The position numbers and the translations under genes are program-made. Below, piece by piece: positions 1,207-20,169 of a stretch of 20,169 bases of DNA; position 1 is the first letter of the stretch; each line of letters starts with the position of its first letter. Origin of the DNA: a virus (Duplodnaviria; Heunggongvirae; Uroviricota; Caudoviricetes); the IMG/VR virus record IMGVR_UViG_2695420632_000003, positions 1 through 20,169 of that record, one strand, 5' to 3'. Under the pieces are notes generated by a model. That model did no database searches, was not told where the DNA came from, and saw nothing but the letters and a program-made list of their open reading frames with translations.

Positions 1207-1953
1207 ATGAAAAACATTGCGGCAGTTGGGGTTCTTGAACGTATTCGCAGACTTGCACCACAGGGGTCGGTTCCACCGTACCGGACGGTGGAGGAGTGGC
1301 GGGAATGGCAACTTGCTGAAGGACGAAAACGCAGCGAGGAGATTAACCGCCAGAATCGCCAGTTGCGGGTGGAAAAAATCCTGAATCGTTCGGGCATCCA
1401 GCCTCTGCACAGCAAATGCTCGTTTGCAAATTATCAGGTGCAGAACGACGGGCAAAAATACGCGCTGAGCCAGGCCAAATCCATAGCTGACGAACTGATG
1501 ACCGAGTGCACGAATTTTGTGTTCAGCGGTAAAACTGGCACCGGGAAAAATCACCTTGCAGCGGCGATGGGCAACCGGCTGATGGTGAAGGGGCGCAGCG
1601 TGATTATCGTCACCGTGTCTGACGTCATGAGCGTGTTGCATGACAGCTACGACAACGGCAAATCCGGGGAAAAATTTTTACAGGAGCTTTGCGGGGTTGA
1701 TTTGCTGGTCCTGGATGAAATAGGCGTTCAGCGGGAGACGAAAAACGAGCAGGTGGTATTGCACCAGATAATTGATCGCCGGACAGCATCACTGTGCAGT
1801 GTCGGGATGTTAACAAACCTGAATCATGCCGCAATGAGTACGCTTCTTGGTGAGAGGATTATGGACCGCATGACCATGAACGGTGGTCGATGGGTGACGT
1901 TTAACTGGGATAGCTGGCGTCCAAATGTCAGCAATATGAGGGTTGTGAAGTAA
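1207..1953 (+). CDS. DnaC-family AAA+ helicase loader (phage replication protein, IstB/DnaC-like)
   Basis: Walker A-like GKTGTGKNHLA and Walker B LLVLDEIG in translation; SD GGGGGTGA before ATG 1207; position directly after O-like gene. Confidence 0.8.
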   Translation: MKNIAAVGVLERIRRLAPQGSVPPYRTVEEWREWQLAEGRKRSEEINRQNRQLRVEKILNRSGIQPLHSKCSFANYQVQNDGQKYALSQAKSIADELMTECTNFVFSGKTGTGKNHLAAAMGNRLMVKGRSVIIVTVSDVMSVLHDSYDNGKSGEKFLQELCGVDLLVLDEIGVQRETKNEQVVLHQIIDRRTASLCSVGMLTNLNHAAMSTLLGERIMDRMTMNGGRWVTFNWDSWRPNVSNMRVVK

Positions 1954-1974
1954 TTTTGTCCGGAGGAAATTTTA

Positions 1975-2745
1975 ATGGAAACCGTATCTGACGCACTGAA
2001 AGCACTGAAAAAAGCCTCTTCACATGTGGTGGCAGCTCGCCTTGGAATCAGTCGTGAAGAGGCTGTCAACGAGCTGTGGGAACTCAAAAGAAAAGGCGTC
2101 GTTGATAAAACTGGTCACACCTGGTATCTGGCTGGCGAAGGTGAATCCCGGGTAACCGAAGAGCGGCCAGTAAAATCTGAAGCACAGGATATGCTGACCG
2201 GGGAGGTCGAACAAAAAGTTACCGCAGACATGATGATTGAGTTTATCGGTCAGGATGGGGCTAAAACGTGTGAGGAACTGGCGGGTAAGTTCGGTGTCAG
2301 TACTCGCAAGGTTGCTTCCACGCTGGCGGTGGTAACCGCAACGGGGCGGCTGGCACGCGTTAATCAGAACGGTAAATTTCGTTACTGCATGCCGGGCGAT
2401 AATTTACCAGCAGAGCCGAAAGCCGCTCTGGTAACGGAAAGTGATGGTAAGGCCTTTCCTCAGCCAGCAGGTGCTGCGTTACCAGTCCGGGAAGCCGCAA
2501 CACAGGAAGAAATTAAAACAGAAACTGTGGCGGACATTGTGCAGCCGTTGCCATCGTTTACCGAAACGCAAGCAGATGAGCTGATTTTTCCGTCCCTTCG
2601 CAGGGCAAACCTGGCGCTGCGCAGGGCGAAAAGTGATGTTCAGAAGTGGGAGCGAGTCTGCGCCGCGCTGCGGGAGCTGAACAAGCACCGGGATATTGTT
2701 CGACAGATTACTGATTCTTCCCGCCGTGTTGTATCGGAAAAGTGA
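1975..2745 (+). CDS. Hypothetical phage protein with winged-helix-like segments
   Basis: 256-aa ORF with SD GGAGGAAA 5 nt upstream of ATG; contains HTH-like stretches (AARLGISREEAVNELWELKRKG; CEELAGKFGVSTRKVASTLAVVTATGRL). Confidence 0.5.
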   Translation: METVSDALKALKKASSHVVAARLGISREEAVNELWELKRKGVVDKTGHTWYLAGEGESRVTEERPVKSEAQDMLTGEVEQKVTADMMIEFIGQDGAKTCEELAGKFGVSTRKVASTLAVVTATGRLARVNQNGKFRYCMPGDNLPAEPKAALVTESDGKAFPQPAGAALPVREAATQEEIKTETVADIVQPLPSFTETQADELIFPSLRRANLALRRAKSDVQKWERVCAALRELNKHRDIVRQITDSSRRVVSEK

Positions 2746-2760
2746 TTGCCGGAGGCGCTT

Positions 2761-3183
2761 ATGGCAAAAGTATTTACACAAGAAGAGCGGGAAAAAATTA
2801 AAGGGCTGATCGTGGAATTCGTACGCCTTAACGGACGAGGCACGATTCGGCAGTTATCGGATGAAATTGGTGTCAGTCATGCGTCTGTCGGTCGTTTATG
2901 CATGGAGCTGGCCGCCAGTGGTGATGTTTACAATTCCGGTTACGGAGTATTCCCGTCTGAGCAGGCGCGCAAGGACTGGCAAAACGCCCGCAAAAAACTC
3001 TCAAGGGCAAAGCTGAAGAAACCATCTGTGGTTGATCCGGACCTTATCTGGCTATTACCAGACGGCGAAATACGCCGCTACGACAGGCGCCTAAACATAA
3101 TCTGTCGCGAGTGCCGGAAGAGTGAAGCTATGCAGCGTGTACTGGCGTTTTATCAGGGGAATTTTGAGGAGGTGGTGCGGTGA
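2761..3183 (+). CDS. Hypothetical phage protein, N-terminal HTH-like domain paralogous to part of preceding ORF
   Basis: ATG 2761 with GGAGG SD 5 nt upstream (ORF track frame opens at TTG 2746); segment TIRQLSDEIGVSHASVGRLCMELAASGDV resembles the HTH-like segment of ORF 1975-2745. Confidence 0.5.
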   Translation: MAKVFTQEEREKIKGLIVEFVRLNGRGTIRQLSDEIGVSHASVGRLCMELAASGDVYNSGYGVFPSEQARKDWQNARKKLSRAKLKKPSVVDPDLIWLLPDGEIRRYDRRLNIICRECRKSEAMQRVLAFYQGNFEEVVR

Positions 3184-3434
3184 GTGAATCAAAATGCCAG
3201 GTTAATGGCAACAAGATAGAACCATGTGCAGCACTGGCAAAGTCCCTTGAGCGTGATGCTGAATACACGATGCGAAAAGGTCTGCTGATATACAAAATCT
3301 GGAATGAGAGTTTAACTCGCGGTCCTGATTTTGTGATGTTGCGTTCCGGTGAATTTTCTAAATTACCAGTTCGGGTTTCATTTTGTCCGTTCTGTGGTGA
3401 AAGTCTGAAAACGTGGGAGAACAGAAATGAATGA
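3180..3434 (+). CDS. Hypothetical small protein with C-terminal CPFCG zinc-ribbon-like motif
   Basis: GTG start overlapping the previous stop (GTGA), SD GGAGGTGG upstream; 84 aa. Confidence 0.45.
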   Translation: MSESKCQVNGNKIEPCAALAKSLERDAEYTMRKGLLIYKIWNESLTRGPDFVMLRSGEFSKLPVRVSFCPFCGESLKTWENRNE

Positions 3435-6326: not shown

Positions 6327-6537
6327 AAACGGTTTGCGGGAAAAGGAGAGTTAAGTAGAATTGCAGCGGGTGCTTGAGGCTATCTGTCTCAGGCATGAAC
6401 ACCAAAAGGCAGATAGAGAAAAGCCCCAGTTAACATTACGCGTCCGGCAAGACGCTTAACATTAATCTGAGGCCATATCTATGCTCTACACACGTAGGTT
6501 AGCCTCTTACGTGCCGAAAGGCAAGGAGAAGCAGGCT

Positions 6538-6693
6538 ATGAAGCAGCAAAAGGCGATGCTAATCGCCCTGATCGTCATCTGTTTAACCGTCATTGTGACG
6601 GCACTGGTAACGAGGAAAGACCTCTGCGAGGTACGAATCCGAACCGGCCAGACGGAGGTCGCTGTCTTCACAGCTTACGAACCTGAGGAGTAA
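6538..6693 (+). CDS. hok: Hok/Gef family type I toxin (HokD/RelF-like, 51 aa)
   Basis: Translation MKQQKAMLIALIVICLTVIVTALVTRKDLCEVRIRTGQTEVAVFTAYEPEE is a Hok-family membrane toxin as I recall it; SD AAGGAGA upstream; an in-frame upstream extension (6481) occupies the mok-like position; intrinsic terminator follows. Confidence 0.85.
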   Translation: MKQQKAMLIALIVICLTVIVTALVTRKDLCEVRIRTGQTEVAVFTAYEPEE

Positions 6694-11067: not shown

Positions 11068-11143
11068 GGCCCTTTAGCTCAGTGGTGAGAGCGAGCGACT
11101 CATAATCGCCAGGTCGCTGGTTCAAATCCAGCAAGGGCCACCA
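11068..11143 (+). tRNA. ileZ: tRNA with CAT anticodon, ileX/ileZ-like (tRNA-Ile2, lysidine type) rather than tRNA-Met
   Basis: 76 nt, cloverleaf folded by hand: acceptor GGCCCTT/AAGGGCC, anticodon loop CTCATAA, T-loop TTCAAAT, encoded CCA; close to E. coli ileX as I recall it. Confidence 0.8.
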
Positions 11144-11150
11144 TCACATA

Positions 11151-11227
11151 CCGCCATTAGCTCATCGGGATAGAGCGCCAGCCTTCGAAGCTGGCTGCGC
11201 GGGGTTCAAGTCCCCGATGGCGGTCCA
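11151..11227 (+). tRNA. argN: tRNA-Arg (anticodon TCG)
   Basis: 77 nt; acceptor CCGCCAT/ATGGCGG, D-stem GCTC/GAGC, anticodon loop CTTCGAA, T-arm CGGGG-TTCAAGT-CCCCG, encoded CCA. Confidence 0.75.
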
Positions 11228-11240
11228 TTATCTGCATCAT

Positions 11241-11317
11241 GCGTTGTTAGCTCAGCCGGACAGAGCAATTGCCTTCTAAGCAATCGGTCACTGGTTCGAA
11301 TCCAGTACAGCGCGCCA
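11241..11317 (+). tRNA. argO: tRNA-Arg (anticodon TCT, decodes AGA/AGG)
   Basis: 77 nt; acceptor GCGTTGT/ACAGCGC, anticodon loop CTTCTAA, T-arm ACTGG-TTCGAAT-CCAGT, encoded CCA. Confidence 0.8.
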
Positions 11318-11781: not shown

Positions 11782-12172
11782 ATACATATCTGGATTATCA
11801 CCGGTTACGGTAAAAAGTGATTGCTTACTGTTTTTGTGAATGGCATTGCAGCAGCCGGATAATGTCAGTGCTGGCTGACGGTGTGCTGGTGGCGGGTGTG
11901 GTGGTTGCTGCTTTCCCGTTGCTGAAAAAGAAAACGCCAGACTGTTAGCCGGGTATCAGTTAGCGGGAGAAATTTTTAAATACTTCACAATTCAGGCGGT
12001 TGACTGTTGTCTGGTTTGCGGGGAGTTTGTTAAAAGAAACTGGCATGGTGAATCCCCCTGTGCGGAGGGGCAATCAGCGAGTAGGTATATGGGATAATCG
12101 CGGATTCAGGTGCTGGTACTGAATTCACCGGGAGGCACCCGGCACCATGCAATGGCACATAGCGCCACTCTC

Positions 12173-12200
12173 CAGCCCCTCTCCGGAGGGGCTGTTTATA
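12173..12200 (+). terminator. Strong intrinsic terminator (+ strand) inside the cargo segment
   Basis: 9-bp GC-rich stem CAGCCCCTC / GAGGGGCTG with UCCG tetraloop, followed by TTTATATTGATTTT. Confidence 0.6.
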
Positions 12201-12228
12201 TTGATTTTGTCAGATGTGAGTAAACTCC

Positions 12229-12809: not shown

Positions 12810-14678
12810 ATGGTGGAAAGAACCATGGCATTTAAACACTATGATGTTGTCAGGGCGGCGTCGCCGTCAGATCTTGCGGAAAAGCTGACACATAAACTGA
12901 AAGAGGGCTGGCAGCCGTTTGGTAGTCCGGTGGCCATAACCCCTTATACCCTGATGCAGGCGATTGCAGCAGAAGGTGATGTGGTCGTCAGTGGTGCAAC
13001 TGAGCCGGAGTGGTACTACGTCATCGTACTGGCCGGGCAGTCCAATGCCATGGCTTACGGTGAAGGGCTTCCGCTTCCGGATTCATACGATGCGCCCCAT
13101 CCGCGCATTAAGCAACTGGCCCGTCGTAACACAGTGACTCCCGGTGGTGAAGTATGCGTATTTAACGACATCATTCCTGCTGACCATTGTCTGCATGATG
13201 TTCAGGATATGAGTACGATTAACCATCCCCGGGCTGACCTGAGCAAAGGGCAGTACGGCTGTGTCGGCCAGGGCTTACATATTGCCAAAAAACTGCTTCC
13301 GTATATCCCTAATAATGCGGGGATCCTGCTGGTACCATGCTGTCGTGGTGGTTCGGCATTCACCCAGGGCACGGAGGGGACATTCAGCGAGTCCACGGGG
13401 GCCAGTCAGGATTCGGCTCGCTGGGGAGTGGGTAAGCCGTTATATCAGGATCTGCTTTTCCGCACGAAGGCAGCATTGCAGAAAAACCCGAAAAACGTTT
13501 TGCTGGCGATATGCTGGATGCAGGGGGAATTCGATATGACGAATGCCAGTTACGCCCAGCAGCCAGCAGCATTTCTTGCAATGGTACAGCAGTTCCGTGC
13601 TGACCTTGCCGGGCTGGCAGCGCAGTGTCACGGTGGAAGTCCGGCATCAGTCCCCTGGATTTGTGGCGACACGACATACGCGTGGAAACAAGAACACGGT
13701 ACGCAATATGAAGTGGTATATGGTGCATATAAAGGTAAAGAATCCCAGCAGATTTATTTTGTTCCCTTTATGACCGATGGTAGCGGAGTTAATACACCGA
13801 CAAACAACCCGTCAGAAGATCCTGATATTGCCGGGTCTGGTTATTACGGTTCGGCATCCCGAACGAACAAAAACTGGGTATCATCAAATCGCCCGACGCA
13901 TTTCAGCTCATGGGCGCGTCGTGGCATTATTCCCGATCGTATGGCAACTGCTATTCTGAACGTAGCCGGGCGCACCTCAGCCTTCATCAGTGGTAAGGCA
14001 CCGGAAATCAAACCCTCGCCCGGCGGCGACACGCCATCGGGTCCGTCTGCAGATACGTCCGTTCGCACAATCTCCCTGCTGCCGACAGCCGGAGAGGCTG
14101 CTGCGCAGGGCTGGACCATCACCGGCGGCAGTGTTGCGCTGGAAGATGGTGTGTTTAAGGTTACCAAGCAGAGCAATAAAACCTGGTCCCTGATGCATCC
14201 GGTGGATGACGCAGTCTCCCTGCTGACACGGGGTGGCAGACTGAGCTGTAAGTTTCGACTGTCAGGCGCACTGACCAACAACCAGTTCGGTCTGGGAATT
14301 TATCTGTATACCGATGTAGCGTTACCTGACGTCGTGGCGATGACCGGGACTGGTAACCCGTTCCTGATGTCGTTCTTCACCCAGACCACAGACGGCAAAC
14401 TGAATCTGATGCATCACAAGAAAGCCGGAAACACAAAGTTGGGCGAGTTCGGGAATTACAGTAACGACTGGCAGACGCTGGAGCTGGTGTTCACCGCCGG
14501 CAGTGCCACGGTTACTCCGAAACTGAATGGAGTGGCTGGCCCGGCATTCCAGGTTATAAAAGACAGTCTGACACTGGGACTGAATGCGCTGACGCTGACG
14601 GATATTACCAAAAATGCAGCGTATGGCGTTGAGATAGAAAGTCTGGTGCTGGAGATAAATGCACCGGCATCATCATAA
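12810..14678 (+). CDS. nanS: NanS-p-like sialate 9-O-acetylesterase (SGNH/SASA hydrolase domain, N-terminal DUF1737-like region)
   Basis: GQSN motif (VLAGQSNAMAYGEG) of SGNH esterases; size and location (downstream of the tRNA triplet, upstream of S) match the yjhS/nanS-like gene of Stx prophages. True start may be ATG 12825 (MAFKHYDV..., SD GGTGGA). Confidence 0.75.
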   Translation: MVERTMAFKHYDVVRAASPSDLAEKLTHKLKEGWQPFGSPVAITPYTLMQAIAAEGDVVVSGATEPEWYYVIVLAGQSNAMAYGEGLPLPDSYDAPHPRIKQLARRNTVTPGGEVCVFNDIIPADHCLHDVQDMSTINHPRADLSKGQYGCVGQGLHIAKKLLPYIPNNAGILLVPCCRGGSAFTQGTEGTFSESTGASQDSARWGVGKPLYQDLLFRTKAALQKNPKNVLLAICWMQGEFDMTNASYAQQPAAFLAMVQQFRADLAGLAAQCHGGSPASVPWICGDTTYAWKQEHGTQYEVVYGAYKGKESQQIYFVPFMTDGSGVNTPTNNPSEDPDIAGSGYYGSASRTNKNWVSSNRPTHFSSWARRGIIPDRMATAILNVAGRTSAFISGKAPEIKPSPGGDTPSGPSADTSVRTISLLPTAGEAAAQGWTITGGSVALEDGVFKVTKQSNKTWSLMHPVDDAVSLLTRGGRLSCKFRLSGALTNNQFGLGIYLYTDVALPDVVAMTGTGNPFLMSFFTQTTDGKLNLMHHKKAGNTKLGEFGNYSNDWQTLELVFTAGSATVTPKLNGVAGPAFQVIKDSLTLGLNALTLTDITKNAAYGVEIESLVLEINAPASS

Positions 14679-14761
14679 AAAGTGAGCCAGTCAAATGGAA
14701 GGTATCGTTAAACTCACCGGTAGTGTCAGTGGGTCGTCTGAGATGCCTGCATGAGTTATCA

Positions 14762-14793
14762 GAGCCATCAGTACTTAACTGGTGGCTTTTTTT
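14762..14793 (+). terminator. Intrinsic terminator between nanS-p and the holin gene
   Basis: 9-bp stem AGCCATCAG / CTGGTGGCT (one G-U pair), loop TACTTAA, followed by TTTTTTT. Confidence 0.5.
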
Positions 14794-14828
14794 ATTGTTG
14801 TCAGCTTCCGGATAACGGGAGACGGGGT

Positions 14829-15044
14829 ATGTACCAGATGGAAAAAATCACAACAGGTGTGTCATACACCACGTCAGCGGTGGGAACGGGCTACTGGTTC
14901 CTGCAGTTGCTGGACAGGGTTTCCCCGTCTCAGTGGGCGGCAATAGGCGTGCTGGGGAGTCTGCTGTTTGGGCTGCTGACATATCTGACTAACCTGTATT
15001 TCAAAATCAGAGAGGACCGGCGTAAGGCGGCGCGGGGAGAGTAA
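14829..15044 (+). CDS. S: Class II holin, S21-like pinholin (71 aa) with dual-start motif
   Basis: Translation [71 protein letters not shown]: two TM segments, Met1/Met4 dual start, charged C-terminus; partnered with a SAR endolysin downstream. The ORF track extension to 14751 runs through the terminator and is rejected. Confidence 0.8.
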
Positions 15045-15048
15045 AGCG

Positions 15049-15855
15049 ATGAAGAAAAAATACGAACTGGTTGTTAAAGGGATAAATAATTACCCGGATA
15101 AGATTACTGTTACTGTGGTACTGGAAATTGGTGGGTATCCGTCACTGTTGTTGCCAAATGTGGCGATTAGTCTTGACCGTACTGAAGGTGCCACGCTGGA
15201 GTTTTACGAAGCTGAGGCGAAAAAGCAGGCGAAGCAGTTTTTCATGGATGTTGCTGCCGGGTTATGTGAAGGGAACGAACCGTTGCCGGAAAAGCGCCCC
15301 ATAATTTTAGAGGCGCAGGATGTGTTGATAACCTACAAAGGAAAGCTACCGGGAAGAATTACTGGTTCTCTGAAGATGCCGCCGTCAACACTGCGGTCAG
15401 AAAAAGAGGCGTCTTGTCTGCAGTCTGAGTACTCCATTACGGTTAAAAGTGCCGGAGAGGAAGGAAATAAACGTTATTTTATTGCGTCTGCACCTGATAA
15501 AGATCAGGAATGGGAGTGTAACCGGCCATCCTTTGTTGTATACGGAGATGGCGGGAAAATAACCATCTCAGAAAATGGGAAATTAACACCGCCATCGCAC
15601 CAGCATAGTGAGGCGCTCATTGAATTTGCCATTGATTACCTGAAGAACAATAAAAAGCAGGGGCTGATGAAGCGCATTGGTCGTTGCATGGGATATCTGC
15701 AGGTAGCAGCTGAGATTGAAATGATGGCCAGTGGTGCTGACAATGATGCAGTTGTGCTGGAGGCTCTTCTGCGTGATTTTGATAATACGCCCTTTAAGAA
15801 AGCACCTGTTGACTGGATGCAGCCGGGGATGACTTATCTGAAAGGGCGTATATAA
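15049..15855 (+). CDS. Uncharacterized 268-aa soluble protein inserted between holin and endolysin
   Basis: GGGGAGAG SD, starts 4 nt after the holin stop (late-operon co-transcription); no TM segments or recognisable catalytic motifs. Confidence 0.5.
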   Translation: MKKKYELVVKGINNYPDKITVTVVLEIGGYPSLLLPNVAISLDRTEGATLEFYEAEAKKQAKQFFMDVAAGLCEGNEPLPEKRPIILEAQDVLITYKGKLPGRITGSLKMPPSTLRSEKEASCLQSEYSITVKSAGEEGNKRYFIASAPDKDQEWECNRPSFVVYGDGGKITISENGKLTPPSHQHSEALIEFAIDYLKNNKKQGLMKRIGRCMGYLQVAAEIEMMASGADNDAVVLEALLRDFDNTPFKKAPVDWMQPGMTYLKGRI

Positions 15856-16307: not shown

Positions 16308-16745
16308 ATGAACACCAAAATCAAATATGGCCTGTCGGCTGCCGTTCTGGCGTTGATTGCCATCGGTGCGCCTGCGCCTGATATTCTCGACCAGTTTCTG
16401 GATGAAAAAGAAGGTAACCACACAACGGCATACCGTGATGGTGCGGGTATCTGGACCATCTGCCGCGGTGCCACAATGGTGGATGGTAAACCTGTTATTC
16501 CGGGCATGAAACTGTCGAAGGAAAAATGCGACCAGGTTAATGCCATTGAACGGGATAAGGCGCTGGCATGGGTGGAGCGCAATATTAAAGTTCCACTGAC
16601 CGAACCACAGAAAGCGGGTATAGCGTCATTCTGTCCCTATAACATTGGCCCCGGTAAGTGTTTCCCGTCGACGTTTTATAAGCGGCTGAATGCTGGTGAC
16701 CGCAGGGGAGCGTGTGAGGCGATTCGCTGGTGGATTAAGGACGGT
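16308..16745 (+). pseudogene. R: SAR endolysin R (R21-like lysozyme), N-terminal fragment interrupted by an IS21-family element
   Basis: N-terminal weakly hydrophobic Gly/Ala-rich SAR domain (GLSAAVLALIAIGAPA) and E-x8-D-x5-T catalytic triad (EGNHTTAYRDGAGIWT); reading frame broken after ...WWIKDG by the IS left end. Confidence 0.8.
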
Positions 16746-16938
16746 TGCGTATTTTCATGAAAGGAGATCACTCAATAACTTCCATCGAGATCGGGTAATA
16801 ACATTTGAACAGATCGCTGAATAACATCGATGGAGATCACTTTTGACTCATTTTGTTATTCAGTGATCTCCATCAATGTTATTGGAACTTCACAGGTGTG
16901 TTGATCTGTATCTTTTGCCATTCCGGTAAAGGATACCT

Positions 16939-18480
16939 ATGCCAACAGTTCCAATTTCTATGAGAAAACTTAAAGAAATTCTTAGGCTTAAATACGGTGT
17001 TGGACTCAGCCATCGACAAATTGGTCGTAGTCTTGCAATCTCCCCTTCCGTTGTATCCAGATATGCTAATCGGGCGGCTCAACTTGGCATAAAGCAGTGG
17101 CCCTTACCTACAGGATGGGATGATACAAAACTAAAACATGCGTTCCTTCAGACCCAGGTTAAGATGAAGAAGCACTCTCTGCCTGACTGGGCTACAGTAC
17201 ACCGGGAACTGCGTAATAAATGCGTGACGCTGCAGCTACTCTGGGAAGAATACTGTGAGCGTAATCCAGGCGGTTTTTACAGCTATAACCATTACTGCCG
17301 GATGTACCGTGAATGGCTCAAAACCACTTCACCATCAATGCGTCAGGTACATAAAGCTGGCGAAAAACTTTTCGTTGATTACTGTGGACCTACCGTTGGC
17401 GTTACCGACCCTGAGACCGGAGAAATAAGAACTGCTCAGGTCATCGTAGCTGTTCTCGGGGCATCAAGTTACACATGGGCAGAGGCCACCTGGTCTCAGC
17501 AGCTTGAAGACTGGGTGATGAGTCATGTTCGCTGCTTCCAGTGGTTGGGTGGCGTTCCTGAACTTGTTGTTCCGGACAATCTGAAAAGCGCCACATCCAG
17601 GGCATGTAAGTATGATCCTGACGTTAACCCTACCTACCAGCAGATGCTTGAGCATTATAATGTCGCAGTTTTGCCTGCGCGGCCACGTAAACCGAAAGAT
17701 AAAGCCAAAGCTGAAGTTGGCGTTCAGGTTGTTGAACGCTGGATCATGGCCCGAATCAGGCATGAGATCTTCTACAGCCTTGCATCGCTTAATCAGCGCA
17801 TTCGGGAGTTGCTGGAAAGACTGAATAACAAAATAATGCAGAAGTTGGGTTATTCACGTGCAGAACTCTTCATCCAGCTTGATAAACCCGCACTGAAGCC
17901 TCTTCCTGAAGCCAGTTACAGTTACACCCTGGTGAAGAAAGTCAGAGTTCATGCCGATTACCACGTGGAAATCGACAAACATTACTACTCGGTTCCATGT
18001 TCGCTGTTAGGCCAGCAACTGGAAGCATGGATCTCCGGAGAACTGGTAAGACTCTTCAATCAGGGGCAGGAGGTTGCTGTGCACCCGCGCAAGCGTACTT
18101 ATGGCTACAGTACCCGCAACGAGCACATGCCTGAAGCTCATCGACAGCATGCCACCTGGACGCCAGAGCGTCTTCTGGAATGGGCGGGGCACATAGGCAG
18201 TGAAACTCATAGTTATGTGCTTCATATACTGAACTCTCGTCCACATCCGGAACAAAGCTATCGCTTCTGCCTTGGACTCCTGAACCTTCATAAAAAATAC
18301 AGTAAAGCCAGACTTAATGCAGCATGTGCAAGAGCTCTGAAAACAAAGGTATGGCGTCTGTCAGGTATTAAATCGATCCTGGAAAAAGGTCTGGATAAAC
18401 AACCTGTTCAGGATCCAAAACCAGATCTGTTATCCACGATGGAACACGAAAACGTACGCGGCAGTGAGTATTACCACTGA
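16939..18480 (+). CDS. istA: IS21-family transposase IstA
   Basis: 513 aa with N-terminal HTH (LSHRQIGRSLAISPSVVSRY); followed 11 nt later by the IstB ATPase gene; AAAGGA SD. Confidence 0.85.
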   Translation: MPTVPISMRKLKEILRLKYGVGLSHRQIGRSLAISPSVVSRYANRAAQLGIKQWPLPTGWDDTKLKHAFLQTQVKMKKHSLPDWATVHRELRNKCVTLQLLWEEYCERNPGGFYSYNHYCRMYREWLKTTSPSMRQVHKAGEKLFVDYCGPTVGVTDPETGEIRTAQVIVAVLGASSYTWAEATWSQQLEDWVMSHVRCFQWLGGVPELVVPDNLKSATSRACKYDPDVNPTYQQMLEHYNVAVLPARPRKPKDKAKAEVGVQVVERWIMARIRHEIFYSLASLNQRIRELLERLNNKIMQKLGYSRAELFIQLDKPALKPLPEASYSYTLVKKVRVHADYHVEIDKHYYSVPCSLLGQQLEAWISGELVRLFNQGQEVAVHPRKRTYGYSTRNEHMPEAHRQHATWTPERLLEWAGHIGSETHSYVLHILNSRPHPEQSYRFCLGLLNLHKKYSKARLNAACARALKTKVWRLSGIKSILEKGLDKQPVQDPKPDLLSTMEHENVRGSEYYH

Positions 18481-18491
18481 TACGGGATCCA

Positions 18492-19241
18492 ATGATGAAT
18501 CATCTTTACGAACAACTGACCGCACTTAAACTCACCGGCTTCCGTGATGCGCTTAAAAAGCAACTTGCTCAGCCGGGCACATACCAGGAGCTGGGCTTCG
18601 AAGAACGCCTGTCATTACTGACAGCAGAAGAACTAACCTGCCGTGAAAACAGGAAGGCAGAGCGTCTGATCAAACATGCACGGTTCAGACTTAATGCTGA
18701 GTTATCAAAGCTGGATTATCGTAACAATAGAGGGCTGGACAGGGCCCTCATCCGTTCACTCAGTCAGGGAAACTGGTTAACCCTGAAACAAAATATTTTA
18801 CTGACCGGGGCCACCGGCAGCGGTAAAACGTTCCTGGCATGTGCACTTGGTCATAATGCCTGCCGACAGGGATACAAGGTCTACTATTATCGCCTTAAAG
18901 CGCTGATGGAACAGTGCTATCAGGGGCATGCTGATGGAAGATACAGCAAACTTTTGACCAGGCTGAATAATAGCGATCTGCTGCTTCTGGATGACTGGGG
19001 GCTGGAACCTCTCTCATCAGAACAGCGTAGCGACCTGCTGGAAATAGTGGATCTGATGTACCAACGAGGCTCAATCATCGTAGTGAGCCAGTTGCCGGTG
19101 GAAAACTGGTACAAAATGATCGGAGACTCCACACATGCGGATGCCATCCTAGATCGACTGGTTCATGGCAGTATCAAGATCGAACTTAAAGGAGAATCAA
19201 TGCGGAAAATACAATCTCCGTTGACCGAAGGAGATCAGTGA
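18492..19241 (+). CDS. istB: IS21-family helper ATPase IstB
   Basis: Walker A GATGSGKTFLA and Walker B LLLLDDWG; ~250 aa, typical IstB. Confidence 0.85.
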   Translation: MMNHLYEQLTALKLTGFRDALKKQLAQPGTYQELGFEERLSLLTAEELTCRENRKAERLIKHARFRLNAELSKLDYRNNRGLDRALIRSLSQGNWLTLKQNILLTGATGSGKTFLACALGHNACRQGYKVYYYRLKALMEQCYQGHADGRYSKLLTRLNNSDLLLLDDWGLEPLSSEQRSDLLEIVDLMYQRGSIIVVSQLPVENWYKMIGDSTHADAILDRLVHGSIKIELKGESMRKIQSPLTEGDQ

Positions 19242-19326
19242 AGGTAATTTAAAAACGGTTCTGTGAAAGTGACACGAACCGATCTCCATCGATGTTACTC
19301 ACCGATCTCCTTCACGGTAATACGCA

Positions 19327-19427
19327 ACGGTGGCAGGGACTGCCGTATTCGCTCAAATAACTGTTACGGTCAGGTATCCCGTCGTGACCAGGAGAGCGCG
19401 CTGGCGTGCTGGGGAATCGACAGATAA
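19327..19427 (+). pseudogene. R: SAR endolysin R, C-terminal fragment downstream of the IS
   Basis: Removing the IS plus one TSD copy restores ...IKDG-GRDCRIRSNNCYGQVSRRDQESALACWGIDR-stop in frame. Confidence 0.75.
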
Positions 19428-19521
19428 GCAGAATATTTTGCTAATAAATGACGTTGGCCAAGGCGGACGGATAACACGAAATCCTGCGAACTGGCAAAAT
19501 GTAAGTGAATAAAAGTAAAAA

Positions 19522-19556
19522 CCCCGTTTGTTGGCAGCAAGCGGGGTTTTGTTTTT
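19522..19556 (+). terminator. Intrinsic terminator downstream of the endolysin
   Basis: Stem CCCCGTTTG / CAAGCGGGG (one G-U pair), loop TTGGCAG, followed by TTTTGTTTTT. Confidence 0.55.
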
Positions 19557-19719
19557 ATGGCAGTAAGCTATGGGAGGCTGCCTTGATTGATTTTAGCAAA
19601 CTGATTAGGGAGTTGCGACTCATGATTAGTCAATTACCAAACTGGAAATTTTTGCTGGTCTGGAGCATCCCTTTTTTATGGGTAGTATCCCAGTTAATTG
19701 TGGCAATTAAGGGGTAGCT

Positions 19720-19851
19720 ATGTCAGACAAACTCATAACGCCGGCAAAGGTCCTGTGTGTGATTGTCGGTATTTCATTTTCACTAATGCTGGTTGCTCTT
19801 TTTCTGTCCCTCGCCTGGGTGATGTTGTCTTCGTCGGGGCTGCTGGGGTGA
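19720..19851 (+). CDS. Small membrane peptide (43 aa)
   Basis: AAGGGG SD 6 nt upstream of ATG; translation MSDKLITPAKVLCVIVGISFSLMLVALFLSLAWVMLSSSGLLG (one TM segment). Confidence 0.4.
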   Translation: MSDKLITPAKVLCVIVGISFSLMLVALFLSLAWVMLSSSGLLG

Positions 19852-19970
19852 CAGTGACTGATGACATCAGCAGAGCGCTGGCTTTTGCTATTAAGTGGGT
19901 GGCTGTTGGTATTGCTGTGTCTCCGATGCTGTATGGGCTGGCAAAACTGGTCATTGCGCTGAAATCGTGA
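19848..19970 (+). CDS. Small membrane peptide (~40 aa), paralogous to the following ORF
   Basis: GTG start overlapping the preceding stop (GTGA); ...DDISRALAFAIKWVAVGIAVSPMLYGLAKLVIALKS resembles ORF 19982-20068. Confidence 0.35.
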   Translation: MTVTDDISRALAFAIKWVAVGIAVSPMLYGLAKLVIALKS

Positions 19971-19981
19971 ACTTTAAAAAG

Positions 19982-20068
19982 ATGAGTGCTGAACTTATTC
20001 GGGCAATGGCATTTGCCATTCGTATTGTGGCCATTGCTGTTCTGGTCTGGGCAATCCGTTGGTGGTGA
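19982..20068 (+). CDS. Small membrane peptide (28 aa)
   Basis: MSAELIRAMAFAIRIVAIAVLVWAIRWW; stop 1 nt before the Rz start; weak SD. Confidence 0.3.
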   Translation: MSAELIRAMAFAIRIVAIAVLVWAIRWW

Positions 20069-20069
20069 T

Positions 20070-20169
20070 ATGAACCGTGTTCTGTGTGTGGTGATTATTG
20101 TCCTGCTGGTAGCCTGTGGTGTGCTTAGTCTGGGGCTGAATCATTACCGTGATAACGCCATAACCTACA
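20070..20169 (+). CDS. Rz: Rz i-spanin, 5' part (continues beyond the window)
   Basis: MNRVLCVVIIVLLVACGVLSLGLNHYRDNAITY... closely parallels the lambda Rz N-terminus (TM segment then NHYRDNAITY) as I recall it. Confidence 0.8.
   Translation, partial: MNRVLCVVIIVLLVACGVLSLGLNHYRDNAITY

What the first reader, a model, noticed from the sequence alone, without database searches (positions are those of the whole stretch)
19428..20069. Tandem small membrane-peptide ORFs between endolysin and Rz
R and Rz are normally adjacent or overlapping. Here about 640 bp intervene, beginning with a terminator and then three translationally coupled small hydrophobic ORFs (43, ~40 and 28 aa). The first has a good SD and the second overlaps it by GTGA. 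The second and third are paralogous (RALAFAIKWVAVGIAV versus RAMAFAIRIVAIAVLV), implying a local duplication. Small single-TM peptides inside a lysis cassette could be antiholins, lysis-timing modulators, membrane-targeting toxins, or exclusion peptides.
Basis: partly seen in the sequence, partly recalled or inferred. Interest (0 to 1): 0.6.

Follow-up and report, generated by a model that had tools for sequence, protein, structure and literature searches.

The report
Small membrane-protein genes between endolysin and spanin
The 642 bases between the endolysin and spanin genes of this E. coli prophage hold four (not three) tightly packed genes for tiny membrane proteins. They belong to uncharacterised families that recur behind a conserved hairpin in the late operons of many enterobacterial phages, so they are real and conserved, but their function is still unknown.

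Summary
Window 19428-20069 lies between the stop of an R21-like SAR lysozyme and the Rz start. It begins with a strong hairpin terminator (19518-19550), followed by a chain of small hydrophobic ORFs.

All four match PHROG families of unknown function. Reading frames are conserved in diverged copies (pooled dN/dS 0.15 for the orf2 family, 0.43 for orf1). These families sit directly after five unrelated endolysin/holin sets. They also occur after a tail fibre and inside a baseplate operon, each time just downstream of a structurally conserved bidirectional hairpin. That argues against a pinholin-specific antiholin.

A conserved minus-strand promoter-like site at the 5' end of the leading ORF predicts a ~69-nt antisense RNA ending at the hairpin, with a geometry like P22 sar or a type I antitoxin. 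This is predicted, not shown.

Best reading: mobile, late-transcribed accessory inner-membrane proteins, possibly antisense-controlled. No paper on them was found.

In this window the endolysin itself is split by an IS21-family element, so this cassette is probably dead.

The parts
16308..16745 (+). 5' part of the R21-like SAR lysozyme gene (about 146 codons), cut off by the IS
   Evidence: Pfam Phage_lysozyme hit, E = 6e-23. BLAST against the intact gene in L001 places the junction.
16746..19326 (+). IS21-family insertion sequence: istA 16939-18480, istB 18492-19241, terminal repeats TGCGTATT, 5-bp target duplication ACGGT
   Evidence: Context only, not part of the small-ORF module.
19327..19427 (+). 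3' end of the lysozyme gene (..GGRDCRIRSNNCYGQVSRRDQESALACWGIDR, then stop)
19518..19550 (.). Bidirectional intrinsic-terminator hairpin, with an A-run on the 5' side and a T-run on the 3' side
   Evidence: Fold of -25.8 kcal/mol, z = -4.5. The structure is conserved in 10 diverged loci, and 5 of 15 pairs show compensatory changes.
19515..19583 (-). Predicted ~69-nt cis-antisense RNA. It would cover the SD and start codon of orf0 and end at the hairpin. Predicted only.
   Evidence: Extended -10 TGCTAAAAT at 19598->19590 is the only TGNTAWAAT in the whole window. It lies in a 20-nt block (19587-19606) that is identical to the CP-1639-type copy while the flanks diverge. The fold places CCUCCC in a loop, followed by a terminator.
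19583..19717 (+). orf0, 44 aa: TTG start, SD GGGAGG at 19572-19577, single transmembrane segment
   Evidence: phrog_6632, E = 1.3e-12. 45-aa homologues with GTG start and SD AAGGAG sit between R and Rz in CP-1639 and in Stx2a/Stx2c phages. Pooled dN/dS for the C-terminal tail is 0.33, from few sequences.
19720..19851 (+). orf1, 43 aa ('B family'): MSDKLIT.., single transmembrane segment, likely N-in
   Evidence: phrog_4906, E = 4.5e-21. 103 relatives were found, with length held at 43-44 aa down to 62% identity. dN/dS is 0.43 in frame, and this is the best of the six frames. PGAP annotates it as WP_001280935.1.
19848..19970 (+). orf2, 40 aa ('A family', KS-ending type). Here it lacks the usual 5' part and starts at a GTG that overlaps the orf1 stop (GTGA).
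   Evidence: phrog_1115, E = 6e-25. dN/dS is 0.12-0.15, with 755 third-position differences against 226 and 92 at positions 1 and 2. The canonical form is 48-60 aa.
19982..20068 (+). orf3, 28 aa ('A family', RWW-ending type, short form). No SD. Its stop lies 1 nt before the Rz ATG.
   Evidence: phrog_4493, E = 3.8e-6. 85% identical to the GER2 copy. The full-length 57-aa form is in phiSTEC1575-Stx2k.
20070..20169 (+). 5' end of Rz (i-spanin); it runs off the end of the window

Best explanation
The interval is a mosaic array of four small single-pass inner-membrane protein genes from three uncharacterised phage gene families: orf0 (phrog_6632), orf1 (phrog_4906), and orf2 and orf3 (phrog_1115/4493).

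These families move between enterobacterial temperate phages as 'hairpin-first' cassettes. Each cassette is a bidirectional terminator hairpin, then an SD and a small ORF within about 25-60 nt, often followed by an orf1-type ORF.

Shown:
- The ORFs and the hairpin are conserved.
- The orf2 family is under clear purifying selection.
- The cassettes sit in late operons.
- No sense-strand promoter is detectable in the gap, and the ORFs are chained stop-to-start into Rz.

Inferred:
- They are made only when Q-modified RNA polymerase reads through the hairpin, that is, together with the lysis genes.
- Translation of the leading ORF is damped by a ~69-nt cis-antisense RNA. It would start at a minus-strand promoter just inside the ORF and stop at the hairpin, which would explain why hairpin and ORF travel together.
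- The proteins act on the cytoplasmic membrane late in infection as dispensable, holin-type-independent accessories, for example nudging membrane energisation and lysis as HokW does for phage Sp5.

In this particular prophage the cassette is probably silent or useless, because R is disrupted by an IS.
For: Coding:
- PHROG hits for all four ORFs.
- PGAP calls them in many genomes.
- Pooled Nei-Gojobori dN/dS is 0.15 for the A-family core, 0.33 for its N-terminal extension and 0.43 for the B family. The annotated frame is the best of six and has no stops.
- Start codon and SD are kept at the same place in diverged copies.

Membrane: Kyte-Doolittle windows of 1.9-2.9.

Mobility and context:
- The families follow five endolysin/holin sets, a tail-fibre end and a baseplate operon.
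- Rz in Qin has no insert upstream.

Hairpin: present before the leading small ORF in every such context, with compensatory changes.

No plus-strand promoter was found in 19200-20169.

Antisense promoter:
- TAGTCA-18-TATAAT/TATACT in L174, L188 and Serratia L196.
- TGGACA-18-TATACT in GER2 and phiSTEC1575, retained despite a one-codon insertion.
- In the window, the single TGNTAWAAT match lies at the equivalent position, inside a 20-nt invariant block.
- The predicted RNAs fold as a stem-loop plus terminator, z = -2.6 to -4.6.

Precedents: hokW-sokW assists Sp5 release (PMC8621323); the 68/69-nt sar RNA of P22 pairs with ant mRNA (PMC12197685).
Against: - No expression or phenotype data exist for any of these ORFs. 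No paper was found.
- The dN/dS values pool non-independent pairs. orf1's 0.43 is only moderately below the 0.52 of the antisense frame that shares third positions.
- The antisense promoter rests on consensus matches in homologous, hence non-independent, sequences. The window pattern was chosen after looking. No Rfam family matches.
- The Hfq-bound sRNAs listed for Sakai in the part of the table that was read include none in the Sp9 R-Rz gap.
- orf2 and orf3 in this window lack the canonical 5' part, so they may be poorly translated remnants.
- Cassettes outside lysis modules argue that the function need not concern lysis at all.
- orf0, A and B are not demonstrably homologous to one another (hhalign probabilities 11% and 1%).
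Confidence: 0.5

Rival explanations
1. These are lysogenic-conversion or superinfection-exclusion 'morons'. The small membrane proteins bind a host inner-membrane protein, such as a DNA-entry or transport component. They protect the lysogen or the late-infected cell and have no role in lysis.
For: - Presence/absence polymorphism at a known accessory-gene slot. Stx phages carry ant in the same gap, and bor lies just downstream.
- The same A-family core occurs at a prophage end after a tail fibre and inside a baseplate operon.
- Copy number varies from 1 to 4.
Against: - No sense promoter was found in the gap.
- A terminator sits upstream rather than downstream of the ORFs, so expression in an uninduced lysogen is not expected.
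- There were no hits in PADLOC.
Confidence: 0.22
2. This is a self-contained type I toxin-antitoxin module. orf0, or the canonical A-type ORF, is a membrane toxin, and the antisense RNA is its antitoxin. The module serves prophage maintenance or abortive infection rather than the phage's own lysis.
For: - Small hydrophobic ORFs of no more than 60 aa.
- Predicted antisense promoter and terminator overlapping the translation-initiation region.
- Tandem paralogues, as is common for type I loci.
Against: - No toxin promoter or long structured 5' UTR.
- The ORFs are embedded in, and translationally chained to, a late operon.
- Toxicity is untested, and no known type I family matches in Rfam or Pfam.
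Confidence: 0.13
3. One reading: these are antiholins or timing modulators that act on the S21-type pinholin and SAR endolysin of this cassette.
For: - Position between R and Rz in a pinholin/SAR-endolysin cassette.
- Small transmembrane proteins can regulate SAR-endolysin release, as Mu gp25 releasin does (PMC9239132).
Against: - The same families accompany unrelated holins and soluble endolysins (GH108, M15) and also non-lysis contexts.
- No Pfam holin or DUF2730 hit.
- Many P21-type cassettes, such as Qin, lack them.
Confidence: 0.08
4. The interval is a non-coding spacer. The ORFs are gene-caller artefacts in an RNA-level or recombination-linker region.
For: - Gene callers disagree on starts (70-aa, 51-aa CTG and 90-aa calls).
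- orf3 lacks an SD.
- The antisense frame over orf2 is also open.
Against: - Third-position bias and dN/dS of 0.15 in the sense frame.
- Lengths, starts and SDs are conserved across E. coli, Salmonella and Serratia.
Confidence: 0.07

Closest known systems
R-ant-Rz arrangement of Stx phages (933W, VT2-Sakai, Stx2 II)
   Same: It uses the same slot between R and Rz and the same first ~90 nt after R. An orf1 homologue (44 aa, MISDKLIT..) lies directly upstream of Rz, and the Sakai record annotates it as ECs_5722.
   Different: Those phages carry an antirepressor-like gene and only orf1, sometimes with an orf0 tail. The window has no ant and has four small ORFs.
P22 sar RNA / ant
   Same: The predicted geometry matches what I recall of sar. 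That is a ~68-nt antisense RNA starting just inside the regulated gene, covering its ribosome-binding site and ending at a terminator upstream. The size and target of sar are taken from PMC12197685; its geometry is from my own knowledge.
   Different: There is no sequence or Rfam match. The regulated genes here are tiny membrane proteins. The RNA is only predicted.
Type I toxin-antitoxin hokW-sokW of prophage Sp5
   Same: It is a small inner-membrane peptide in a lambdoid prophage, controlled by an antisense RNA, and it measurably assists lysis and phage release (PMC8621323). This window also carries a hok/sok locus elsewhere, at 6368-6543.
   Different: hok/sok has its own promoters and a long folded mRNA and lies in the early region. 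The ORFs here sit inside the late lysis operon and show no homology to Hok.
Antiholins and the Mu releasin gp25 (DUF2730)
   Same: They are small membrane proteins encoded in lysis cassettes that tune endolysin release.
   Different: There is no Pfam match. There is no cytoplasmic or periplasmic domain of any size. The families do not track holin or endolysin type.
Phage morons (lambda bor and lom; HK97 gp15; from my own knowledge)
   Same: They are dispensable genes inserted between neighbours that are adjacent in related phages, and some encode small membrane proteins.
   Different: A classical moron has its own promoter upstream and a terminator downstream. Here the hairpin is upstream and no sense promoter is seen.

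Membership tests
PHROG families 6632 / 4906 / 1115-3246-4493 (unknown function) | Significant profile match over most of the protein | tested here: met
   E-values are 1.3e-12 (orf0), 4.5e-21 (orf1), 6.4e-25 (orf2) and 3.8e-6 (orf3).
Type I toxin-antitoxin | Small (<= ~60 aa) hydrophobic membrane peptide | tested here: met
   The ORFs are 28-44 aa in the window and 57-60 aa in the canonical form. Each has one hydrophobic stretch with a Kyte-Doolittle score of 1.9-2.9.
Type I toxin-antitoxin | Antisense or trans sRNA with its own promoter and terminator that pairs with the toxin mRNA | tested here: inconclusive
   A promoter-like site and a terminator are present at equivalent positions in six lineages. 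There are no expression data and no Rfam family.
Type I toxin-antitoxin | Toxin transcribed from its own promoter | tested here: not met
   No plus-strand sigma-70-like site was found in 19200-20169. Only ~25 nt separate the hairpin from the SD in canonical modules.
Type I toxin-antitoxin | Toxicity on overexpression, relieved by the RNA | not testable with these tools
   This needs an experiment.
Holin / antiholin | Match to a holin family, or co-variation with a particular holin | tested here: not met
   No Pfam or NCBIfam hit. The families occur with at least four different holin families and without any holin nearby.
Spanin (i-, o- or u-spanin) | Periplasmic coiled-coil domain after a transmembrane segment, or a lipobox lipoprotein | tested here: not met
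   None of the four ORFs has a lipobox, and the extramembrane tails are at most 20 residues. The true Rz starts at 20070.
Releasin (Mu gp25, DUF2730) | DUF2730 profile match: an N-terminal transmembrane segment plus a cytoplasmic domain | tested here: not met
   No Pfam hit at E <= 10.
Moron | Insertion between genes that are adjacent in related phages | tested here: met
   rrrQ and rzpQ overlap in K-12 Qin. The content of the slot varies between phages.
Moron | Own promoter upstream and terminator downstream | tested here: not met
   The hairpin is upstream and no sense promoter was found.
P22 sar-type antisense RNA | Rfam sar model match | tested here: not met
   It was not listed at E <= 10 in 19300-20169, nor at E <= 1 in ten related loci.

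The most novel reading that the evidence does not exclude
The hairpin-first cassettes are a new family of antisense-RNA-gated small membrane toxins built into phage late operons. A ~69-nt RNA made in the lysogen and early in infection would keep the peptides off. Q-driven read-through late in infection would outrun that RNA. The peptides would then depolarise the inner membrane and so act as a generic, holin-type-independent trigger or timer for lysis. This would explain why they travel between unrelated lysis cassettes.
Probability: 0.15. Interest if true: 0.75.

Novelty: new variant of a known kind. Interest (0 to 1): 0.5.

Why it matters
Lysis cassettes of lambdoid phages are textbook material, built from holin, endolysin and spanin. 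Yet about one in ten complete E. coli genomes carries this extra block of conserved small membrane-protein genes inside the cassette, and Stx phages carry part of it. Nobody appears to have studied it.

If the proteins tune lysis or membrane energisation, they bear on the timing of phage and Shiga-toxin release. If the predicted antisense RNA exists, it adds a regulatory layer inside the late operon. It would also be a further example of RNA-controlled small membrane peptides in prophages.

If the proteins are exclusion factors, they mark a compact and highly mobile accessory-gene slot. Either way the question is directly testable with inducible relatives that have an intact endolysin gene.

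Tried and rejected
- Pfam, NCBIfam and PADLOC gave nothing for any of the peptides.
- Rfam gave nothing above noise in the gap or in ten related loci.
- Two IMG/VR scans returned 160 loci that were almost all identical to the window, so they were useless for substitution analysis. Diverged copies came from the look-up of encoding contigs instead.
- A scan of species-representative genomes with the A-family alignment found only chance pattern matches; a first attempt failed for lack of a conserved stretch.
- I suspected that the published 66-nt prophage sRNA HnrS (EcOnc10-12) might be the predicted antisense RNA. Its coordinates place it downstream of Rz in Sakai Sp9, so it is a different RNA. 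EcOnc15 is the Q-stx1 leader RNA.
- I considered the small lipoprotein that follows the peptides in phiP27-like cassettes as an Rz1-like spanin. In GER2 its homologue is a pseudogene ~750 nt past Rz, it has no Pfam Rz1 hit, and its mature part is only ~29 residues, so I rejected this.
- I tried to unite orf0, A and B in one superfamily. hhalign does not support that.
- The minus-strand site CTGACA-18-CACAAT at 19726->19697 is no better than the shuffled expectation and was not used.
- Literature searches for the accessions and for the R-Rz interval found nothing.

Full report
**What is in the window.** The window is a lambdoid prophage late region. It carries a hok/sok locus, three tRNAs and an STnc100-type RNA. 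Further along come a nanS-p-like esterase (12810-14678), a P21-S-type holin (14751-15044), a DUF1327 protein and a phage lysozyme. The lysozyme gene is split: its first ~146 codons end at 16745. A 2581-bp IS21-family element (istA, istB, inverted ends TGCGTATT, 5-bp duplication ACGGT) occupies 16746-19326. The last 33 codons run 19327-19427. In K-12 Qin the homologous rrrQ and rzpQ overlap, so the 642 bp here are an insert.

**Anatomy of the interval.** A strong hairpin lies at 19518-19550, with an A-run before it and a T-run after it. It folds at -25.8 kcal/mol, z = -4.5. A chain of small ORFs follows:

| ORF | Coordinates | Length | Start and ribosome-binding site |
|---|---|---|---|
| orf0 | 19583-19717 | 44 aa | TTG; SD GGGAGG at 19572-19577 |
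| orf1 | 19720-19851 | 43 aa | ATG; SD AAGGGG |
| orf2 | 19848-19970 | 40 aa | GTG overlapping the orf1 stop as GTGA |
| orf3 | 19982-20068 | 28 aa | ATG; no SD |

The orf3 stop lies one base before the Rz ATG. Each ORF has one hydrophobic stretch with a 19-residue Kyte-Doolittle mean of 1.9-2.9. Some PGAP annotations extend it to a 70-aa GTG ORF that runs through the hairpin, which is unlikely to be right. Homologues in CP-1639 and in Stx2a and Stx2c phages start with GTG at the position of the TTG and have their own SD.

**Are they genes?** All four match PHROG families of unknown function: 6632, 4906, and 1115/3246/4493. None matches Pfam, NCBIfam or PADLOC. RefSeq calls them hypothetical proteins.
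- Protein searches found 103 relatives of orf1, all from E. coli, with length held at 43-44 aa down to ~62% identity.
- A profile search found 309 relatives of the orf2/orf3 family in E. coli, E. marmotae, Salmonella and Serratia. None carries a functional name.
- I computed pooled Nei-Gojobori statistics on diverged DNA copies. The orf2-family core has dN/dS 0.15, with 755 third-position differences against 226 and 92 at positions 1 and 2. Its N-terminal extension has 0.33, orf1 has 0.43, and the orf0 tail has 0.33 from few sequences.
- In every case the annotated frame is the best of six and is free of stops.
- One caveat: the antisense frame that shares third positions also scores low (0.28 for orf2, 0.52 for orf1), and the sequence pairs are not independent.
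- Start codons and SDs are kept at the same place even where the upstream sequence has been replaced.

I take the orf2 family as certainly coding. orf1 and orf0 are probably coding. The truncated orf2 and orf3 copies in this window may be weakly expressed.

**Where else the families occur.** The exact block is present in 578 of 5426 complete E. coli genomes and in isolated phages such as vB_EcoS-569R3. The families are shuffled between phages:
- orf2 then orf1 (PhiR12_2_star, ED1a)
- orf2, orf1, orf2, orf3
- orf0, orf1, orf2, orf1
- ant, an orf0 tail, then orf1 (Stx phages; in Sakai the orf1 homologue is annotated ECs_5722)

They also follow quite different lysis genes:
- Phage_holin_2_3 with a 179-aa lysozyme, and a 90-aa holin with a 161-aa lysozyme, in Salmonella
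- holin_8/holin_3_7 with a GH108 endolysin in E. coli
- the same holins with an M15 peptidase in phiP27 and phiSTEC1575-Stx2k

A-family genes with the same core also lie at a prophage end after a SASA/DUF6645 tail fibre in Salmonella. There they occur as tandem paralogues next to a DUF1353 gene. One lies inside a baseplate operon of a Serratia prophage. The common denominator is therefore a late operon, not a particular holin or endolysin. orf1-type genes were always second, behind an orf0-type or A-type ORF or its remnant.

**The hairpin travels with the leading ORF.** In all these contexts a terminator-like hairpin lies within ~25-60 nt upstream of the leading small ORF. In the GH108 cassettes, where the flanks upstream were aligned, homology to the other copies begins only at the hairpin. 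Across ten diverged copies the consensus fold has 15 pairs, and 5 of them show compensatory changes. There is no room for a sense promoter between hairpin and SD, and none was detected in the gap. Sense expression therefore needs read-through, which Q-modified polymerase provides. This step is inferred from the established behaviour of lambdoid late transcription.

**A predicted antisense RNA.** The promoter scan gave a single minus-strand hit at the equivalent place in five loci, just inside the 5' end of the leading ORF and pointing at the hairpin. The sites are TAGTCA-18-TATAAT/TATACT in Salmonella L174, E. coli L188 and Serratia L196. In GER2 and phiSTEC1575 the site is TGGACA-18-TATACT, where a one-codon insertion has been accommodated by a new -35.

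The window has orf0 in this position, and an extended -10, TGCTAAAAT, lies at 19598->19590 on the minus strand. It is the only TGNTAWAAT match in the 20-kb window. It sits inside a 20-nt block (19587-19606) that is identical between the window and the CP-1639-type orf0, although the two proteins are only 41-45% identical and the SD regions differ completely.

A transcript from ~19583 to ~19515 would be about 69 nt. It would be complementary to the orf0 SD and start codon. It folds as a 5' stem-loop with CCUCCC in the loop, an A/U spacer and the terminator. The canonical-module RNAs fold similarly, z = -3.2 to -4.6.

This is the geometry of P22 sar/ant and of cis-encoded type I antitoxins such as SymR. 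The size and target of sar are from PMC12197685; the rest is from my own knowledge. It remains a prediction. The hits are in homologous sequences and I chose the window pattern after seeing it. No Rfam family matches. The one published prophage sRNA of similar size, HnrS, maps downstream of Rz, not here.

**What they probably do.** No tool here can test function. I favour dispensable inner-membrane accessories that are made with the late genes and are independent of holin type. The precedent is HokW, a prophage-encoded membrane peptide that speeds Sp5-mediated lysis and doubles phage release (PMC8621323).
- A pinholin-specific antiholin or a releasin-like role is unlikely, given the range of partners and the absence of any DUF2730 or holin profile match.
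- An exclusion or moron role stays open and is the main rival. The non-lysis contexts favour it. The upstream terminator and the missing sense promoter count against it.
- A stand-alone type I addiction module is possible but lacks a toxin promoter.
- A non-coding spacer is contradicted by the substitution pattern.

**This copy.** R is interrupted and the late transcript would have to cross 2.6 kb of IS, so the block in this prophage is probably not doing anything now. It is best studied in relatives with an intact cassette.

**Novelty.** The ORFs are 'known unknowns'. They are annotated as hypothetical in thousands of genomes and clustered in PHROGs, but I found no description of them. Three things appear to be new here:
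- the families are hairpin-first mobile cassettes
- they occur with five unrelated lysis gene sets and also outside lysis modules
- a conserved antisense promoter is predicted

I rate the finding as a new variant of a known kind (phage accessory small membrane proteins, possibly RNA-controlled) and of moderate interest.

Noticed in passing
window 16746-19326 (target duplication at 16741-16745 and 19327-19331): An IS21-family element (istA and istB, inverted ends TGCGTATT, 5-bp duplication ACGGT) splits the SAR lysozyme gene, so the prophage is probably lysis-defective. The R part left of the IS is only 89% identical to the intact gene in L001, while the part to the right is 100% identical. That suggests a recombination junction at or near the IS.
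   Followed up: partly
L182 1100-2300; L188 1300-2000; L194 (phiP27) 1630-3200; L195 1270-3020: phiP27-like cassettes (holin_8 and holin_3_7 with a GH108 or M15 endolysin) have no recognisable Rz/Rz1. After the small membrane ORFs comes a conserved 51-62-aa lipoprotein (lipobox LVGC, phrog_7528, unknown function). How these phages breach the outer membrane is unclear.
   Followed up: partly
L196 2466-2790 (Serratia marcescens prophage): A hairpin plus an A-family ORF (..NYKRILLRLTMKNGLEVDAP..RWW) is inserted between two tail or baseplate genes of a myovirus-like prophage. A terminator-like hairpin in the middle of a baseplate operon is unexpected.
   Followed up: no
L180 1305-1668; L197 2501-2865 (Salmonella): Tandem diverged A-family paralogues (64 aa and 55 aa) lie after a SASA/DUF6645 tail-fibre protein and before a DUF1353 gene at the prophage end. 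Two terminator hairpins precede them.
   Followed up: partly
L170 712-1491, compared with L168 711-1406: In one E. coli contig the ant-like ORF in the R-Rz gap reads through into the orf0 transmembrane tail, giving 259 aa instead of 231 aa. This would be a membrane-anchored antirepressor-like protein, or it may be a frameshift artefact.
   Followed up: no
window 19733-19954 (minus strand): A 73-aa ORF antisense to orf1 and orf2 shares third codon positions with orf2 and stays open in diverged copies. Its dN/dS (0.28) is worse than that of the sense frame (0.15), and its length and start vary, so I treated it as a by-product.
   Followed up: yes
window 15049-15855: The DUF1327 (YdfR-like) ORF between holin and lysozyme is 268 aa here, against 114 aa in related prophages. 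Only its first 100 residues match the domain.
   Followed up: no
window 6368-6543; 11068-11314; 12014-12203: Rfam finds a hok/sok locus, three tRNA genes and an STnc100-type RNA upstream of the nanS-p-like gene. These are typical features of the lambdoid late-regulatory region.
   Followed up: no
L210 2023-2070 (Sakai Sp9, minus strand): The published 66-nt sRNA HnrS (EcOnc12) lies just downstream of Rz/Rz1, before a DUF3950 gene. The window ends before the equivalent position, so its presence here could not be checked.
   Followed up: partly
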